IMG/VR virus record: IMGVR_UViG_2663762857_000014 | Length of the DNA stretch: 7,051 nt | Source: a virus | Lineage: Duplodnaviria > Heunggongvirae > Uroviricota > Caudoviricetes | Strand: one strand, 5' to 3' | Shown here: positions 232 to 7,051 of the stretch, piece by piece | Numbering within the stretch: position 1 is the stretch's first letter | Layout of the letters: the number at the start of each line of letters is the position of its first letter | Position numbers and translations under genes: made by a program | Notes under the pieces: generated by a model | What the model saw: only the letters and a program-made list of their open reading frames with translations | What the model was told of the DNA's origin: nothing | Database searches by the model: none

Positions 232-3200
232 ATGGGTAAAGGTGGCGGCAAGGCGCACACACCTCGTGAGGCGAAGGATAATCTCAAATCCACGCAGATG
301 ATGAGCGTGATTGATGCGATTGGTGAGGGACCGATAGAAGGTCCGGTGAAGGGACTGCAGAGTATCCTGGTGAACAAAACCCCGCTGACGGACACGGACG
401 GTAATCCCGTGATACACGGTGTGACGGCGGTCTGGCGCGCCGGGGAGCAGGAGCAGACACCACCGGAAGGCTTTGAGTCCTCCGGAGCTGAAACTGTACT
501 GGGCGTGGAAGTGACGAAGGCAAAACCGGTGACGCGCACCATTACGTCCGCGAACATTGACCGCCTGCGGGTTACCTTCGGGGTGCAGTCACTGGTGCAG
601 ACCACGTCAAAGGGTGACCGAAACCCGACATCCGTCCGCCTGCTGATTCAGTTACAGCGTAACGGTAACTGGGTGACAGAAAAGGATGTCACCATTAACG
701 GCAAGACCACCTCGCAGTTTCTGGCGTCGGTGATTCTGGATAATCTGCCTCCCCGTCCTTTTAACATCCGGATGGTCCGGGAGACGGCGGACAGCACCAC
801 GGACCAGTTGCAGAACAGAACACTCTGGTCATCGTACACCGAAATCATCGATGTGAAACAGTGCTACCCGAACACGGCGATTGTGGGGCTGCAGGTGGAT
901 GCGGAGCAGTTCGGTGGTCAGCAGATGACGGTGAACTACCATATCCGCGGTCGCATCATCCAGGTGCCGTCAAACTATGACCCGGAAAAACGCACCTACA
1001 GCGGTATCTGGGACGGCAGTCTGAAACCGGCATACAGCAACAACCCGGCCTGGTGCCTGTGGGACATGCTGACTCACCCGCGCTACGGGATGGGAAAACG
1101 CCTGGGGGCGGCGGATGTGGACAAGTGGGCGCTGTATGCCATCGGGCAGTACTGCGACCAGACGGTCCCGGATGGTTTCGGGGGCACAGAGCCGCGGATG
1201 ACCTTTAATGCGTACCTGGCACAACAGCGTAAGGCGTGGGACGTTCTCAGTGATTTCTGCTCGGCGATGCGCTGTATGCCGGTATGGAACGGCCAGACGC
1301 TGACGTTCGTTCAGGACCGCCAGTCGGATGTGGTGTGGCCGTACACGAACAGCGATGTGGTGGTGGATGATAACGGCGTGGGGTTCCGCTACAGCTTCAG
1401 TGCCCTGAAGGACCGGCACACGGCGGTGGAGGTGAATTACACCGACCCGCAGAACGGCTGGCAGACCTCCACGGAACTGGTGGAAGACCCGGAAGCCATA
1501 CTGCGCTACGGACGCAACCTGCTGAAGATGGATGCGTTCGGCTGCACCAGTCGCGGTCAGGCCCACCGTGCCGGGCTGTGGGTGATAAAGACAGAACTGC
1601 TGGAAACGCAGACGGTGGATTTCACACTCGGGTCACAGGGGCTGCGTCACACACCGGGTGACATTATTGAAATCTGTGATAACGACTATGCCGGGACTAT
1701 GACCGGCGGACGTATCCTGTCCATTGATGCTGCCACCCGCACCCTGACGCTGGACCGTGAGGTTACCCTGCCGGAGACAGGTACATCGGCGGTGAACCTG
1801 ATTAACGGCAGCGGTAAGCCGGTGAGTGTGGACATCACCGCACACCCCGCGCCGGACCGGATACAGGTCAGTACCCTGCCTGATGGTGTGGAGACATACG
1901 GGGTGTGGGGACTCTCCCTGCCGTCACTGCGCCGTCGCCTGTTCCGCTGTGTCTCCATCCGGGAAAACACGGACGGCACCTTTGCCATCACGGCAGTGCA
2001 GCACGTACCGGAAAAAGAAGCCATTGTGGATAACGGAGCCCGCTTTGAGCCGCAGTCAGGCACCCTGAACAGCGTTATCCCACCGGCAGTGCAGCACCTG
2101 ACGGTGGAGGTGAGCGCAGCTGACGGCCAGTATCTGGCGCTGGCGAAATGGGACACGCCGCGGGTGGTGAAGGGCGTGCGCTTCAGTCTGCGCCTGACCA
2201 GTGGAAGCGGTGAGAACAGCCGCCTGCTGACCACCGCCATCACTGCCGATACGGAGCACCGTTTCAGTGGCCTGCCTCTCGGGGAATACACCCTGACGGT
2301 CAGGGCGATTAACAGCTATGGCCAGCAGGGCGAACCCGCCACCACCACGTTCCGGATTAACGCACCGGCAGCGCCTGCCGGTGTTGAACTGACGCCGGGG
2401 TATTTTCAGATAACGGCGGTACCGCGTCTTGCGGTGTATGACCCGACGGTGCAGTTTGAGTTCTGGTTTTCGGAGGCAAAAATTGCAGACGCCGCACAGG
2501 TGGAAACCTCTGCCCGTTATCTGGGGACCGGCAGTCAGTGGAGTGTCTCCGGCCCGCACATTAAGCCCGGAAAGGATTTCTGGTTTTATGTGCGCAGCGT
2601 CAACCTGGTGGGTAAATCTGCTTTTGTGGAAGCCAGTGGACGGGCGAGCAATGATGCTGCGGGCTATCTGGAACTTTTCCGGGAAAAGATAGGAAAAACG
2701 CATCTGGCAGAGGCGCTGTGGGCAGAGATTGACAACAGTCAGCTGAAGGACGAGATGGCGGAAATGCAGACCACCATCACAGAAACCCGCAATGAAATCA
2801 CACAGACGGTCAGTAAAACGCTGGAGGACCAGAGCGCCACCATACAGCAGATACAGCGCGTGCAGAAGGACACAAATGATGACCTTGCTGCACTTTACAT
2901 GCTGAAGGTACAGAAAACAAAAAATGGCATACCCTATGTTGCCGGTATTGGAGCGGGGATTGAGGATACTGATGGCCAGCCCCTGAGCAACATACTGCTG
3001 CTGGCTGACCGTATTGCGATGATTAACCCGGAGGACGGCAACACCACGCCGTTATTTGTGGCGCAGGGGAATCAGTTGTTCATGAACGATGTGTTCCTGA
3101 AGCGGCTGTTTGCGGTGAGTATCACCTCGTCCGGCAATCCCCCTACGTTCTCCCTGACGCCGGAAGGCAGGCTGACGGCCCGTAATGCGGATATCAGCGG

Positions 3201-3762
3201 ACATATCAGTGCGAACTCGGGCACGCTGAATAATGTCGTGATAGCGGAGAACTGTACCATCAAAGGTACTCTGAGAGCGGAAAATATCATTGGCGATGTG
3301 GTGAAAACGCACAATGTCAGTCTTCCTGATCTCAGGGCTGCAGGGGAGCACAGACACGCGACAGAACGAACGGTTACTGTCATTGATGATCAGTCGTTTG
3401 ACCGGAATATTGTTATCCCGCCGGTTTTTTATTCCGGTATTATCTACAAAGGAAGTGATGGTGACGGTGCGACCTCAATCTGTACGCTGACGGTGAGTGT
3501 GAATGATCGGGTGGTGTTCAGCAAAACCTCATCCATCGGTACCAGGCGTACGTCAGGGGGATACCCCGTTCAGGAAGACACCATATATCCCGGGTCATCC
3601 ACTCCGTTCAGCTATTTCATGAGGATGGCGTCAGGGGGAGGTGATGTCAGGATCAAGTTCCGGATTGAGGTCATCTATTATGGAACTGCACCGGGTTTTA
3701 TGACCACAGGGATACAGATCACAACGATGAAGGCGTCAGCTTCAGGATTTGTGGAAAGTTAA
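232..3762 (+). CDS. J: Lambda J-like central tail fibre / host specificity protein (tail tip), 1176 aa
   Basis: 3531-nt ORF with ATG at 232 and Shine-Dalgarno AGGAG at 223-227 (5-nt spacer). The N-terminus [39 protein letters not shown] and internal stretches ([39 protein letters not shown]; [30 protein letters not shown]; [29 protein letters not shown]; [18 protein letters not shown]) match what I recall of phage lambda gpJ (about 1130 aa). Antisense ORFs across it are explained by its length and GC richness. Confidence 0.95.
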
Positions 3763-4082
3763 TCCCGGACGATCGTGATTGCCGGAAGGAGACAAAAACC
3801 GCACAGTATGCGCGGGTGCCTTTGGCTGATGGCCGGAGGGAACACCTGAAAGCCTGATGTGAAAAGGCCCCGAGTCAACTTCAATGTTAACCCGAGGCCC
3901 TGATCCGTCTATCTTAAGCAAGTGGCAGGTTAGCGCCTCTCCGTAATAAGGAGCAAGTGCTGTGTCGCAAAAACCACCGTGATTTGTATCACTGTAGTGC
4001 TCATTATCTGGATCACCCACCGTTCACTGTGTGAATTCCGGTTCCGGATAGCACCTTTTTAATCCTGTAAACCACGATTTTT

Positions 4083-4118
4083 ACCGCAGACCGGGAAACC
4101 GGCACTGCGGTTTTTTTT
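4083..4118 (+). terminator. Rho-independent terminator: interrupted stem (ACCGCAG / CTGCGGT outer, CCGG / CCGG inner, GAAA tetraloop) followed by T8
   Basis: Read directly: accgcag-a-ccgg-GAAA-ccgg-cact-ctgcggt-tttttttt. The outer arms 4083-4089 and 4105-4111 are exact reverse complements, and the T8 run is 4111-4118. On the opposite strand the hairpin is followed by A-rich sequence, so it is unidirectional. It ends 13 nt before the Stf start codon. Confidence 0.6.
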
Positions 4119-4131
4119 ATGGGGAAAATCT

Positions 4132-5583
4132 ATGACAGTCAGAATATCGGGCGTGCTGAAGGACGGCACCGGGAAGCCGGTACCGGGATGCACCATTGAA
4201 CTGAAAGCCCTGCGCACCACGGAGACAGTGATTGTCACCACGGTGGCGCAGGGGCAGCCGGGGGAAACCGGCAGTTACAGTTTTGATGTGGAGCCGGGGT
4301 GGTACCGGGTGACGCTGAACACGGAAGGGTACGCCCCGTCGTATGTGGGTGACATTCTGGTGAAGGCGGATTCTGAGCCGGGAACGCTGAATAAATTTCT
4401 GATGGAACAGGATGAGGCGCAGTATTACCCGAAAGCGCTTGCAGAGCTGGAAGTGGTGGCAGCGGAAATCCTGAAGCGTGCTGAAGCGTCGGCGGCGAGT
4501 GCAGAGGAAGCGAAGAAACGGGCAGAGAATGCCCGGGGACCGGCGGGCGAGAAGGGGGACACAGGTCCACAGGGTGCCACAGGGGCACAGGGACCAGCCG
4601 GGGCAACGGGGGCGGTCGGACCAAAAGGTGAGCCGGGGCCAAAGGGAGAACGGGGAGAAACAGGTCCACAGGGACCGAAGGGCGATAAAGGTGACCCGGG
4701 CGGACCGCCGGGGCCGAAAGGTGACACCGGCCCACGTGGAGAGGCCGGACCACCCGGACCACAGGGTCCGGCAGGGCAAAGCGGCCCTAAAGGGGATAAA
4801 GGTGAACCCGGCGCAACAGGTCCGGCAGGTCCCGCAGGCCCTCGGGGAGAAACCGGCCCTGCAGGTCCTGCGGGTCCCGCAGGCAGTGTCGCCAGTGTTC
4901 CGGATGCCAGCACATTACAGAAAGGTGTTGTACAGCTGAGCAGCGATACCAACAGCGATGATGAAACAAAAGCGGCAACCCCAAAGGCTGTGAAAGCGGT
5001 AATGGCAGAAGTGCAGGCAGCAAAAACGAAGGCAGAAGAGGCAGCAACCCGGGCAGCAGTCCCCGGACCGAAGGGGGACAGGGGGGAACCTGGCGCACCT
5101 GGTGCAGTGGGGCCCGCAGGCCCACGGGGACCGGCTGGTGCAGCTGGTCCCAAAGGTGATGCAGGCCCGGCCGGACCCCGGGGTCAAAAAGGTGATACAG
5201 GACCTGCAGGTCCGCAGGGACCAGCTGGCCCGGCAGGCCCACAGGGGGTTGCCGGAAGGGACGGCAATGTTTCCACCGGGAAATATGCGGTTGGTTCTTA
5301 TGTTTTTGGCGTGTCCTCTGTCTATGCTGACGGCGAAGGCTTATTTTCATCAGGGATATATGAAAACATTCAGGGTAGCTCCATTGATCTGATTTCAATA
5401 CAGACAACACAAACAGGCGCATCAACACCAAATCAAATCTGGTTTTTGAAACTGGAGGAGGACATTCCGGGGGTGTGGCGGGCATTTAAACCCGCCGCAT
5501 ATATTGATCTGATGCCAGAAGGAATGCAAGGAGGAAAGAACTCGATGTTTAACTTTATTACTCTTTTCCAGCGGATAGCGTAA
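4132..5583 (+). CDS. stf: Side tail fibre protein (lambda Stf-like N-terminus) with collagen-like Gly-X-Y shaft, 483 aa
   Basis: ATG at 4132 with GGGGA 7-8 nt upstream. The N-terminus [26 protein letters not shown] closely resembles the lambda Stf N-terminus as I recall it ([26 protein letters not shown]). The motif [28 protein letters not shown] (aa 264-291) matches the conserved tail-fibre motif KGIVQLSSATNS...AATPKAVK. Two long G-X-Y runs occupy aa 136-251 and 311-377. A non-repetitive C-terminal domain of about 105 aa follows. Confidence 0.9.
4537..4884 (+). repeat. Collagen-like Gly-X-Y coding repeat block 1 within stf (about 38 triplets, one register break at [12 protein letters not shown])
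   Basis: Translation [116 protein letters not shown]. The DNA is a GC-rich 9-bp-periodic repeat, which explains the long stop-free antisense and out-of-frame ORFs in the track. Confidence 0.9.
5065..5262 (+). repeat. Collagen-like Gly-X-Y coding repeat block 2 within stf (about 22 triplets)
   Basis: Translation [68 protein letters not shown], immediately after the conserved KGVVQLSS...TPKAVK motif and an Ala/Lys-rich linker. Confidence 0.9.
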
Positions 5584-5594
5584 CGAGGTACGGC

Positions 5595-6188
5595 ATGATA
5601 ATAGCGATCAGTGCGGTTAAGGATCCGGTATATACCAGGCAGGGATGTATCAACTGTCTGGTGAAACTCACCGGAGTTGACGAGGAGGAGACGGACTGGC
5701 TTCCGTTTACGGCGACACCAACGGACGAAGCCCCTCATGGAAAAGAACTCTGGCAGGCACTGAACTCAGGTCAATATGGTCAAATCGCGCCGTATACTCA
5801 ACCGGAAGATGCGGTGGAAAAAGCCAGACAACAGAAAATTAATGAGATCAACGCCTGGCGTAATTCGATGGAAGCGGCGAACTACACGTTTGAGCACAAT
5901 GGGCGTAAATGGGACTACGGGAAGTCAACGCAGACGCGTCTTGAGCCGTCGGTGGCGGCAGCGAAAGCGGGGAAACTGCCGGAGGCGTTTTTCTGGACGG
6001 ATGCGGACAATAATGACGTACCGATGGACGCTGAAACACTGATTGCTCTGAGTGCTGCTGCAGAGCAGGCGATGTTTACCAAAGGTCTGGAAATTCATGT
6101 CAGACAGCGCACGATGAAAAAAGAGATTGAAGCGCTGGATGATGCGGAAGCTATACTGGCGTATAAGGTCGGCATGGCTGACAGGTGA
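5595..6188 (+). CDS. Putative tail fibre assembly protein / chaperone (Tfa-like by position), 197 aa
   Basis: ATG at 5595 with GAGG at 5586-5589 (5-nt spacer), 11 nt after the stf stop. Its size and position directly downstream of the side tail fibre gene match lambda tfa and other tail fibre assembly chaperones. I cannot confirm family membership by eye, so the function rests on synteny. Confidence 0.75.
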   Translation: MIIAISAVKDPVYTRQGCINCLVKLTGVDEEETDWLPFTATPTDEAPHGKELWQALNSGQYGQIAPYTQPEDAVEKARQQKINEINAWRNSMEAANYTFEHNGRKWDYGKSTQTRLEPSVAAAKAGKLPEAFFWTDADNNDVPMDAETLIALSAAAEQAMFTKGLEIHVRQRTMKKEIEALDDAEAILAYKVGMADR

Positions 6189-6995: not shown

Positions 6996-7051
6996 ATGAG
7001 CAAGAAATTTGCAAATACTATTCTTTCTTCTGCTGTTGCCGGATTGATGTT
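6996..7051 (+). CDS. Possible 5' end of a gene running off the window; the N-terminus MSKKFANTILSSAVAGLM looks like a signal peptide (secreted, fimbrial or outer-membrane protein?)
   Basis: ATG at 6996 followed by two lysines and a hydrophobic stretch, the typical n-region and h-region of a Sec signal peptide. No classic SD directly upstream, so it may be translationally coupled to the small ORF. Only 18 codons are visible. Confidence 0.3.
   Translation, partial: MSKKFANTILSSAVAGLM

What the first reader, a model, noticed from the sequence alone, without database searches (positions are those of the whole stretch)
4537..5262. Side tail fibre whose shaft is built from collagen-like Gly-X-Y triplets
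The Stf homologue keeps a lambda-like N-terminal anchor and the conserved KGVVQLSS...AATPKAVK motif, but its shaft is two collagen-like blocks (about 38 and about 22 triplets). Collagen-like triplet shafts are known in some prophage tail fibres and are prone to length change through recombination between triplets. The single register break ([12 protein letters not shown]) could be a hinge, or a scar of such an event.
Basis: partly seen in the sequence, partly recalled or inferred. Interest (0 to 1): 0.5.

Follow-up and report, generated by a model that had tools for sequence, protein, structure and literature searches.

The report
Collagen-shafted prophage side tail fibre
This is an intact E. 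coli prophage side tail fibre gene whose shaft is built from collagen-like Gly-X-Y repeats; the protein type, including its single conserved register break, was published in 2000 and 2012, so the finding is real but ordinary.

Summary
The 483-aa ORF (4132-5583, +) has 19 + 19-20 Gly-X-Y triplets (aa 136-253), split by one extra residue inside GDPGGPPG. A second block has 22-23 triplets (aa 312-380). The blocks are flanked by a lambda-Stf-like N-terminal domain (PF08400), a Phage_fiber_2 repeat and a small C-terminal tip.

The exact protein is RefSeq WP_250543018.1. It is 84% identical to ORF-401 of prophage P-EibA, the type example of the "EPclC" architecture of Ghosh et al. 2012 (PMC3368898). 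[quoted passage not shown]

Three small additions from this work:
- Relatives vary from 11-26 triplets in distal block 1 and 18-72 in block 2.
- The break sits exactly at a module junction. G-x-P-G-G-P ends a conserved 19-triplet module in 116 of 120 relatives. It is followed either by the Pf2 repeat or by a new collagen run that starts P-GPKGD. I read it as an old, inherited fusion scar; a hinge role is untested.
- The receptor-binding tip is swapped as a cassette whose left junction lies inside collagen block 2.

No trimer could be modelled with these tools. Interest is low.

The parts
232..3762 (+). Tip attachment / host specificity protein J (1176 aa), the central tail fibre. It is the upstream neighbour that places the finding in a lambdoid tail module.
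   Evidence: Pfam GpJ domains PF24801, PF24421, PF13550, PF24489 and PF09327, with E from 1e-22 to 1e-41. Annotated gpJ in relatives.
4085..4120 (+). G+C-rich hairpin followed by a run of T (ccgcag...ctgcgg TTTTTTTT), ending about 10 nt upstream of the stf start codon. It looks like a terminator; its function was not tested.
   Evidence: Read directly from the sequence. The pattern scan did not list it on the + strand.
4132..5583 (+). Side tail fibre gene (483 aa + stop), EPclC-type collagen-like Stf.
   Evidence: ORF list. Pfam PF08400, PF01391 and PF03406. phrog_366 'tail fiber protein', E 3.5e-106. Exact match to WP_250543018.1.
4132..4404 (+). PfN / StfN collar domain (aa 1-91). By homology it is the virion attachment domain.
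   Evidence: PDB 9e7m Ur-lambda Stf residues 1-91, E 3.5e-28. 52% identity to lambda orf-401. Collar role from PMC12617516.
4414..4536 (+). Ala/Glu/Lys-rich helical segment (aa ~95-135) directly N-terminal of collagen block 1. It is probably a short trimeric coiled coil that sets the chain register.
   Evidence: Helix 95-134 in the low-confidence AF2 monomer. It lies within the PF08400 match 1-134. The lambda Stf equivalent is a trimeric bundle. The coiled-coil role is inferred.
4537..4707 (+). Collagen block 1a: 19 Gly-X-Y triplets (aa 136-192) ending GDP-GGP. This module has a conserved length.
   Evidence: The G-x-P-G-G-P motif occurs in 116 of 120 relatives, 109 of them at the same offset.
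4690..4713 (+). Register break GDPGGPPG (aa 187-194). One extra residue, P193 (nt 4708-4710), shifts the Gly register by +1.
   Evidence: [quoted passage not shown]
4711..4890 (+). Collagen block 1b: 19-20 triplets (aa 194-253), variable in length among relatives (11-26 triplets).
4891..5064 (+). Non-collagen linker (aa 254-311): a Phage_fiber_2 repeat (aa 260-301, KGVVQLSS...AATPKAVK) overlapping an Ala-rich helix (aa ~282-308).
   Evidence: PF03406, E 1.2e-15. Weak match to Mu tail fibre S, PDB 5yvq / 8ju3, residues 106-154. 56% identity to the lambda orf-401 Pf2. Helix 282-308 in the AF2 monomer.
5065..5271 (+). Collagen block 2: 22-23 triplets (aa 312-380). It contains the left junction of the tip cassette at about nt 5158-5188.
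   Evidence: DNA identity to relatives drops from 96-100% to 30-55% at gene nt ~1020-1060.
5272..5580 (+). C-terminal tip (aa 381-483), predicted all-beta, ending LFQRIA. Presumed receptor-binding domain. This subtype is rare.
   Evidence: No hit in Pfam, NCBIfam or PDB. It aligns at 22-42% identity with other tip subtypes that share PG-x-W and LFQR. Only 1 of 5426 complete E. coli genomes carries it. The receptor-binding role is inferred.
5595..6188 (+). DUF4376 protein (197 aa) immediately downstream. It is a candidate tip-specific assembly or accessory protein. Its N-terminal ~75 aa is swapped together with the tip.
   Evidence: PF14301, E 2.1e-21. phrog_1141. Mosaic junction at window ~5816-5844 and co-variation with tip type. 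No similarity to lambda Tfa.
6996..7051 (+). First 18 codons of an Eib-like (YadA-C family) trimeric autotransporter gene, MSKKFANTILSSAVAGLM. This is the cargo gene typical of P-Eib prophages.
   Evidence: Sequence. Relatives are annotated 'YadA C-terminal domain-containing protein' or eibA at the same position.

Best explanation
The gene encodes the side tail fibre (Stf) of a P-Eib-type lambdoid prophage of E. coli, of the published collagen-like architecture EPclC.

How it most likely works: three chains form one fibre.
1. The N-terminal beta domain (aa 1-91) docks on the tail, as in Ur-lambda. There, twelve StfN copies form a collar at the gpV/gpM junction that carries four trimeric fibres.
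2. A short helical bundle (aa ~95-135) brings the three chains into register.
3. The shaft follows, in this order: 19 collagen triplets; a one-residue register break; about 19 more triplets; a Phage_fiber_2 repeat with a short helix; and about 22 more triplets. At the published 0.288 nm rise per residue, the roughly 185 collagen residues would span about 53 nm.
4. A ~100-aa beta-rich C-terminal tip binds a so far unknown cell-surface receptor and speeds adsorption.
5. The downstream DUF4376 protein probably helps fold or complete that tip.

Because the shaft is encoded by imperfect 9-nt repeats, unequal or illegitimate recombination adds or removes whole triplets without harming the fold. The same repeats also provide in-frame crossover points at which the tip cassette is exchanged.

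The register break is the inherited junction between a conserved proximal collagen module (ending G-x-P-G-G-P) and a second collagen module (starting P-GPKGD). It may also give local flexibility.

What is shown here: domain content, homology, triplet-number variation, and the positions of the junctions. What is inferred: trimer and triple helix for this particular protein, the receptor-binding role of the tip, the helper role of the DUF4376 protein, and hinge behaviour of the break.
For: Gene order: J, then stf, then the DUF4376 gene, then eib, as in P-EibA.

N-terminal domain: PF08400 E 1.6e-41; PDB 9e7m E 3.5e-28; 52% identity to lambda orf-401. The collar role comes from PMC12617516.

Collagen blocks: PF01391 E 1.8e-27. 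There are 60-62 triplets, with X = Pro 52% and Asp/Glu 27%, and Y = Ala 30%, Lys/Arg 28%, Thr 13%, Gln 10%. This is close to the EPclP profile of Ghosh et al., Table 4.

Published precedent:
- 84% identity to P-EibA ORF-401, about 98% over aa 1-340, which is listed as EPclC with collagen lengths of 117 and 75 aa.
- Ghosh et al. showed a trimer and a collagen triple helix experimentally for EPclA.

Triplet variation:
- Among 120 homologues, block 1b has 11-26 triplets and block 2 has 18-72.
- The 20 length classes from 580 to 688 aa all differ by multiples of 3 aa.
- Specific deletions are flanked by short GP / TGP / GPAG repeats.
- The DNA holds 17 imperfect copies of a 39-nt unit, nearly all spaced in multiples of 9 nt.

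Break as a module junction:
- G-x-P-G-G-P is present in 116 of 120 relatives, 109 of them at the same offset. It is followed by the Pf2 repeat (DA...) in 97 and by a new collagen run in 19.
- DNA similarity between the window gene and the P0028-type gene ends exactly after GGA CCG of the break.
- Collagen runs that follow a non-collagen linker start x-P|GPKGD, as does the run after the break.

Tip cassette: junctions lie at window ~5158-5188 (inside block 2) and ~5816-5844 (inside the DUF4376 gene).
Against: No direct evidence for a triple helix in this protein or in any EPclC member. The experiments in Ghosh et al. were on EPclA and EPclB.

The available predictor models monomers only. It gave low confidence (mean pLDDT 41.9 for the full length, 48.5 for the tip), so it neither supports nor refutes the model.

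Whether this prophage is inducible, or the fibre is made, is unknown. The window is a 7-kb contig.

A terminator-like hairpin sits just upstream of the start codon, although late-operon antitermination would read through it.

The receptor is unknown, and the tip has no detectable characterised homologue.

The direction of the event that created the break cannot be told: it could be deletion of a Pf2 linker or insertion of one.

Break-less relatives P0018 and P0019 exist. If those proteins work, the break is not required for function.
Confidence: 0.85

Rival explanations
1. The Gly-X-Y region is an artefact: a frameshifted, misassembled or non-coding low-complexity GC-rich repeat that merely happens to be open in this frame.
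For: GC-rich triplet repeats leave several frames open. The ORF listing shows overlapping ORFs of 153-242 aa on both strands across 4425-5153. Many database relatives are partial proteins at contig ends. One relative, P0014, is frameshifted within block 2.
Against: - Only the Gly-X-Y frame is continuous with the PF08400, PF03406 and tip domains. The other forward frames have 3 and 11 stops.
- The identical protein is found in independent assemblies.
- A 99.1% identical CDS of the same length is in a complete genome.
- More than 100 full-length homologues keep the frame and differ by whole triplets.
Confidence: 0.01
2. The protein is a bacterial cell-surface collagen-like adhesin (Scl / Lcl / BclA-like) carried as prophage cargo, not a virion component.
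For: NCBIfam gives sub-threshold matches to SclB, SclA and Lcl collagen-like adhesins: 121, 93 and 92 bits. The neighbouring eib gene is a cargo adhesin.
Against: - Those matches are far below the curated cut-offs (325-500 bits) and cover only the collagen repeats.
- The N-terminus is the Stf collar domain, not a signal peptide.
- The gene sits between J and a tail-fibre-associated gene, in the stf position of lambda.
- PHROG tail-fibre families match at E 1e-106.
Confidence: 0.03
3. The register break is a functional hinge kept by selection, for example to let the fibre bend towards the cell surface, and is not merely a neutral recombination scar.
For: - The motif is conserved in sequence and position across 116 of 120 relatives, and in the EPclB, C and D types according to Ghosh et al..
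- Lambda Stf has a pronounced hinge between its proximal and distal parts.
- From my own knowledge, not tested here: interruptions in collagen triple helices are known to cause local kinks or flexibility.
Against: - Conservation is equally explained by common descent of the whole 19-triplet proximal module, whose DNA is 96-100% identical among near relatives.
- In 97 relatives the same motif simply ends the collagen run.
- Break-less variants produced by deletion exist.
- No structural or EM data exist for EPclC. The hinge seen by EM in EPclA lies at the coiled-coil / collagen junction, not at such a break.
Confidence: 0.3
4. The gene is an intact-looking remnant in a defective prophage and no longer has a virion function. 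The collagen blocks then drift in length neutrally.
For: - Many E. coli lambdoid prophages are defective.
- The window lacks lom between J and stf.
- Frameshifted relatives exist: P0014 and the EPclA* entries of Ghosh et al..
Against: - The ORF is intact, and so are J and the DUF4376 gene.
- The frame is kept through about 62 triplets despite frequent indels in relatives.
- Length changes among relatives are almost always in-frame, which points to purifying selection on the reading frame.
Confidence: 0.15

Closest known systems
ORF-401-like protein of prophage P-EibA (AAF63232, E. coli ECOR-9; GenBank AF151091), the type example of architecture 'EPclC' in Ghosh et al. 2012, PLoS One 7:e37872
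   Same: 84% identity overall and about 98% over aa 1-340. Same domain order: PfN, Col, break, Col, Pf2, Col, non-PfC tip. Same GDPGGPPG break at aa 187. Same gene neighbourhood: J, stf, a 191-197-aa DUF4376 gene, then eib.
   Different: The distal part of collagen block 2 and the tip diverge, with about 42% identity in the tip. Block 2 has 22-23 triplets here against 25 in P-EibA. P-EibA has lom between J and stf; the window does not.
EPclA / EPclB collagen-like prophage tail fibre proteins of E. coli O157:H7 (e.g. ECs2717, Z1483), and phi24B gp61
   Same: PfN domain, collagen shaft, and the same X/Y residue preferences. EPclB also has two Col blocks separated by Pf2, with the same interruption. 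A trimer and a collagen triple helix were shown experimentally for EPclA.
   Different: EPclA and EPclB carry a 109-116-aa PCoil coiled coil and a PfC (PF06820) C-terminal domain. This protein has only a ~40-aa helix, and its tip has no PF06820 match.
Bacteriophage lambda side tail fibre Stf (orf-401 / orf-314 in lambda PaPa; Ur-lambda structure PDB 9e7m)
   Same: The N-terminal collar domain is 52% identical, one Pf2 repeat is 56% identical, and the gene position downstream of J is the same.
   Different: The lambda shaft is not collagenous and its distal part is gp37-like, binding OmpC. Lambda's helper is Tfa, which shows no similarity to the DUF4376 protein here.
Collagen-like fibre proteins of Gram-positive phages (e.g. 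the S. aureus phage 80alpha upper fibre gp68, PDB 6v8i)
   Same: A Gly-X-Y segment within a trimeric phage fibre. The sequence match is weak: E 6e-5 over 42 aa.
   Different: The flanking domains, virion position and host are unrelated. The resemblance is limited to the repeat.

Membership tests
EPclC collagen-like prophage tail fibre (Ghosh et al. 2012) | N-terminal PfN domain (PF08400) | tested here: met
   PF08400 over aa 1-134, E 1.6e-41, 141.9 bits against a cut-off of 26.6.
EPclC collagen-like prophage tail fibre (Ghosh et al. 2012) | One or more (Gly-X-Y)n collagen domains, typically two separated by a Pf2 repeat (PF03406) | tested here: met
   Runs at aa 136-253 and aa 312-380, with PF03406 at aa 260-301 between them.
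EPclC collagen-like prophage tail fibre (Ghosh et al. 2012) | C-terminal region without homology to PfC (PF06820); long PCoil usually absent | tested here: met
   No PF06820 hit even at E <= 1. Only ~40 helical residues lie between PfN and Col.
EPclC collagen-like prophage tail fibre (Ghosh et al. 2012) | [quoted passage not shown] | tested here: met
   GDPGGPPG at aa 187-194. The motif as published is quoted.
EPclC collagen-like prophage tail fibre (Ghosh et al. 2012) | Sequence homology to the type member, P-EibA ORF-401 | tested here: met
   84% identity over the full length.
EPclC collagen-like prophage tail fibre (Ghosh et al. 2012) | Homotrimer with a collagen triple helix | not testable with these tools
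   Only monomer AF2 is available, and it gave pLDDT 41.9. The feature was shown experimentally for EPclA only.
Lambda Stf side tail fibre family | StfN collar domain that docks on the tail at the tube / tip junction | tested here: met
   Sequence homology only: 9e7m residues 1-91 at E 3.5e-28, and 52% identity to lambda. Docking itself was not tested.
Lambda Stf side tail fibre family | gp37-like distal shaft and tip, with a Tfa chaperone gene downstream | tested here: not met
   There is no similarity beyond the Pf2 repeat. The downstream protein is DUF4376 and is unrelated to lambda Tfa. The protein is therefore an Stf homologue only in its proximal part.
Bacterial surface collagen-like adhesins (Scl1 / Scl2, Lcl) | Score above the NCBIfam curated cut-off; signal peptide and cell-wall or outer-membrane anchor | tested here: not met
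   121, 93 and 92 bits against cut-offs of 325, 400 and 500. The matches cover the repeats only. The N-terminus is the phage collar domain.

The most novel reading that the evidence does not exclude
The conserved one-residue interruption is the footprint of a modular 'collagen splice site'. In this reading, a fixed proximal module (PfN, helix, 19 triplets ending G-x-P-G-G-P) can be joined in frame either to a Pf2-containing linker or directly to another collagen module that begins P-GPKGD. The collagen-coding repeats in general would then serve as the in-frame recombination linkers through which these prophages swap a three-part cassette (distal shaft, tip, and the N-terminal part of the DUF4376 helper) to change host range. 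That would make Gly-X-Y repeats a dedicated evolvability device and not only a structural spacer.
Probability: 0.35. Interest if true: 0.35.

Novelty: already known. Interest (0 to 1): 0.15.

Why it matters
The finding adds little. Collagen-like side tail fibres of E. coli prophages are documented, and this exact protein is already in RefSeq under a generic name.

The practical value is in annotation: the gene can be named a collagen-like side tail fibre of the EPclC / P-EibA ORF-401 type.

The locus is also a clean illustration of how repeat-encoded shafts allow two things: fibre length changes in whole triplets, and exchange of receptor-binding tips together with the front part of their helper gene. 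That is relevant to predicting the host range of prophages that carry virulence cargo such as Eib adhesins. The tip subtype found here is rare and uncharacterised.

Tried and rejected
- Tip structure. I ran AF2 on aa 375-483 with a 6-sequence alignment. Mean pLDDT was 48.5, too low to use, so I ran no fold search.
- Full-length AF2 monomer with 25 homologues. Mean pLDDT was 41.9. Only the coarse secondary-structure pattern is usable, and it cannot test a triple helix.
- Homologues of the tip:
  - The word-index search with the tip alone found 1 protein.
  - The exhaustive phmmer search against 1.84 billion representatives gave 5 weak multi-stretch hits to long unrelated proteins, and none at E <= 1e-10.
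  - The profile search found only E. coli fragments of five tip subtypes.
  - There was no Pfam, NCBIfam or PDB match.
- tblastn against phage genomes covered only aa 1-141, because BLAST's low-complexity filter is on and apparently masks the collagen region.
- DUF4376 protein. I found no PDB relative and no similarity to lambda Tfa, so its helper role remains an inference from position and co-variation.
- Overlapping ORFs on either strand across the repeat. I considered and rejected these as real genes. They are the expected by-product of GGN-CCN-rich repeats and have no supporting homology.
- The break as a sequencing error. Rejected: it is conserved in relatives and is reported in the literature.
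Full report
**What is in the window**

The 7051-nt window is an entire contig of an E. coli draft assembly; the exact Stf protein is recorded on a contig of that length. It carries the distal end of a lambdoid prophage tail module:
- J, the host specificity protein (232-3762, 1176 aa; GpJ Pfam domains).
- A 369-nt spacer without lom.
- The 483-aa ORF of the finding (4132-5583).
- A 197-aa DUF4376 gene (5595-6188).
- An AT-rich spacer.
- The first 18 codons of an Eib-like YadA-family adhesin gene (6996-7051).

Complete E. coli genomes and the GenBank record of prophage P-EibA show the same order, with or without lom.

**Check of the observation**

Translation of 4132-5583 gives three runs with Gly at every third residue:
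- aa 136-192: 19 triplets.
- aa 194-250/253: 19-20 triplets.
- aa 312-377/380: 22-23 triplets.

The first two runs are separated by a single extra residue, ...[16 protein letters not shown]..., which is the reported [20 protein letters not shown]...AATPKAVK lies at aa 264-288.

Pfam calls PF08400 (aa 1-134, E 1.6e-41), Collagen PF01391 (E 1.8e-27) and Phage_fiber_2 PF03406 (aa 260-301, E 1.2e-15).

Chance is excluded. In 2000 shuffles of the protein the longest Gly-X-Y run never exceeded 9 triplets, against 23 observed. Only this frame is free of stops across the region.

An artefact is excluded too. The identical protein is WP_250543018.1, seen in several assemblies. A 99.1% identical CDS of equal length lies in the complete genome NZ_CP049845.

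**What it is**

The N-terminal 129 residues are 52% identical to lambda orf-401, the N-terminal part of Stf. Residues 1-91 match the Stf chain of the Ur-lambda cryo-EM structure 9e7m at E 3.5e-28. In that structure twelve StfN domains form a collar at the gpV/gpM junction, and each of the four side fibres is a trimer (PMC12617516).

The whole protein is 84% identical to the ORF-401-like protein of prophage P-EibA, and about 98% over aa 1-340. Ghosh et al. 2012 (PMC3368898) classify collagen-like prophage tail fibre proteins of E. coli into EPclA to EPclD. They list P-EibA ORF-401 (479 aa; collagen lengths 117 and 75 aa) as EPclC: PfN, two Col domains separated by Pf2, usually no long PCoil, and a C-terminal region unrelated to PfC. 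[quoted passage not shown] The window protein meets every sequence-level criterion (see the membership table).

Its X/Y composition is close to their EPclP profile:
- X position: Pro 52%, Asp/Glu 27%, Ala 13%.
- Y position: Ala 30%, Lys/Arg 28%, Thr 13%, Pro 12%, Gln 10%.

For EPclA they showed experimentally a trimer, a collagen triple helix of high thermal stability, and a dumbbell shape with a hinged stalk. [quoted passage not shown]

The finding is therefore a correct rediscovery of a published protein type.

**Length variation**

Among the 120 best database homologues, block 1a is almost always 19 triplets. Block 1b ranges from 11 to 26 triplets and block 2 from 18 to 72. In the commonest related architecture, 20 length classes between 580 and 688 aa all differ by multiples of 3 aa.

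Individual differences from the window protein can be read as deletions between short repeats:
- 7 triplets between two GPAG in P0007.
- 3 triplets between two GP in strain SW071611.
- Deletions of 55 and 85 aa that span and remove the break in P0018 and P0019.

At the DNA level the region holds 17 imperfect copies of a 39-nt unit, nearly all spaced in multiples of 9 nt. One relative, P0014, is frameshifted inside block 2.

**The register break**

G-x-P-G-G-P is present in 116 of 120 relatives, and in 109 of them at the same offset, as triplets 18-19 of the first run. In 97 relatives it is followed directly by the Pf2 repeat (DATTAQKG...). In 19 it is followed by a further collagen run.

A DNA alignment of the window gene with a gene of the first kind (P0028 type, locus L007) stays collinear through all 19 triplets. 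The similarity ends exactly after GGA CCG of the break.

Collagen runs in these proteins that follow a non-collagen linker begin x-P|GPKGD (AVP|GPKGDR, GVP|GPKGDK, SIP|GPKGDR). The run after the break begins the same way, GGP-P|GPKGDT. The extra residue is thus the Pro that normally precedes the first Gly of a collagen module.

I read the break as an old, inherited junction between two collagen modules. It is equivalent to removal, or non-insertion, of the Pf2 linker. It is not a recent private scar and not an error. Whether it also acts as a hinge is untested.

DNA identity to most E. coli relatives is 96-100% up to gene nt ~1020-1060, which is aa ~343-352 inside collagen block 2. It then falls to 30-55% and recovers only at window ~5816-5844, inside the DUF4376 gene.

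The exchanged unit is the distal part of block 2, the ~100-aa tip, and the N-terminal ~75 aa of the DUF4376 protein. Tip subtype and DUF4376 N-terminus co-vary in the six loci compared. A relative with a third tip subtype has no DUF4376 gene at all.

The window's tip is found in only 1 of 5426 complete E. coli genomes. It has no Pfam, NCBIfam or PDB match. It aligns at 22-42% identity with four other subtypes that share a PG-x-W motif and a C-terminal LFQR.

**Limits**

The structure tool models monomers only. The tip (pLDDT 48.5) and the full length (41.9) were both low-confidence, so I ran no fold search. The only usable output is the coarse pattern: beta 3-77, helix 95-134, no regular structure through the collagen blocks, helix 282-308, and beta 388-482. 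This agrees with the domain boundaries but does not test a triple helix.

Trimerisation, the receptor, the role of the DUF4376 protein and expression of the prophage all remain inferences.

**Verdict**

The feature is already known: P-EibA ORF-401 was deposited under AF151091, and the EPclC architecture and its conserved interruption were described in 2012. Interest is low (0.15). The junction analysis and the tip-cassette boundaries are small additions, not a new kind of feature.

Noticed in passing
window 5158-5844: Mosaic cassette. Identity to most E. coli relatives collapses inside collagen block 2 (about 5158-5188) and resumes inside the DUF4376 gene (about 5816-5844). The distal shaft, the tip and the first ~75 aa of the downstream protein are therefore exchanged as one unit. 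Tip subtype and DUF4376 N-terminus co-vary in six loci.
   Followed up: partly
window 5272-5580: The C-terminal tip subtype (ending LFQRIA) is rare: 1 of 5426 complete E. coli genomes carries it. It has no Pfam, NCBIfam or PDB match. An exhaustive phmmer search of 1.84 billion representatives gave only 5 weak hits.
   Followed up: partly
window 6996-7051: The window ends with the start of an Eib-like (YadA C-terminal family) immunoglobulin-binding adhesin gene, MSKKFANTILSSAVAGLM. This marks the element as a P-Eib-type prophage.
   Followed up: partly
window 3763-4131: There is no lom gene between J and stf, as in strain NCTC9112. P-EibA and strain UPEC-245U have a 600-nt lom there. A G+C-rich hairpin with a T8 run (4085-4120) ends about 10 nt before the stf start codon.
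   Followed up: partly
L007 4001-6690 (relative, P0028-type Stf): The commonest related architecture (580-717 aa) carries a ~185-aa non-collagen insert between two Pf2 repeats, and up to 72 triplets in its second collagen block. It has no DUF4376 gene downstream; the next gene is dinI on the other strand.
   Followed up: no
L004 5001-6554 (NCTC9112 relative): This relative has Cys in place of a Gly at triplet 18 (GDK CDP GGP), right at the interruption motif. It may be a real Gly substitution or a sequencing error.
   Followed up: no
window 4425-5153 (-) and 4478-4939 (+): Long overlapping ORFs of 153-242 aa lie in other frames across the collagen-coding repeat. They are most likely by-products of the GGN-CCN-rich sequence, and none has supporting homology.
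   Followed up: no
whole window: The window is a complete 7051-nt contig, and many database relatives of this gene are partial proteins at contig ends. This suggests that short-read assemblies tend to break in or near these multi-copy, repeat-rich tail fibre genes.
   Followed up: no
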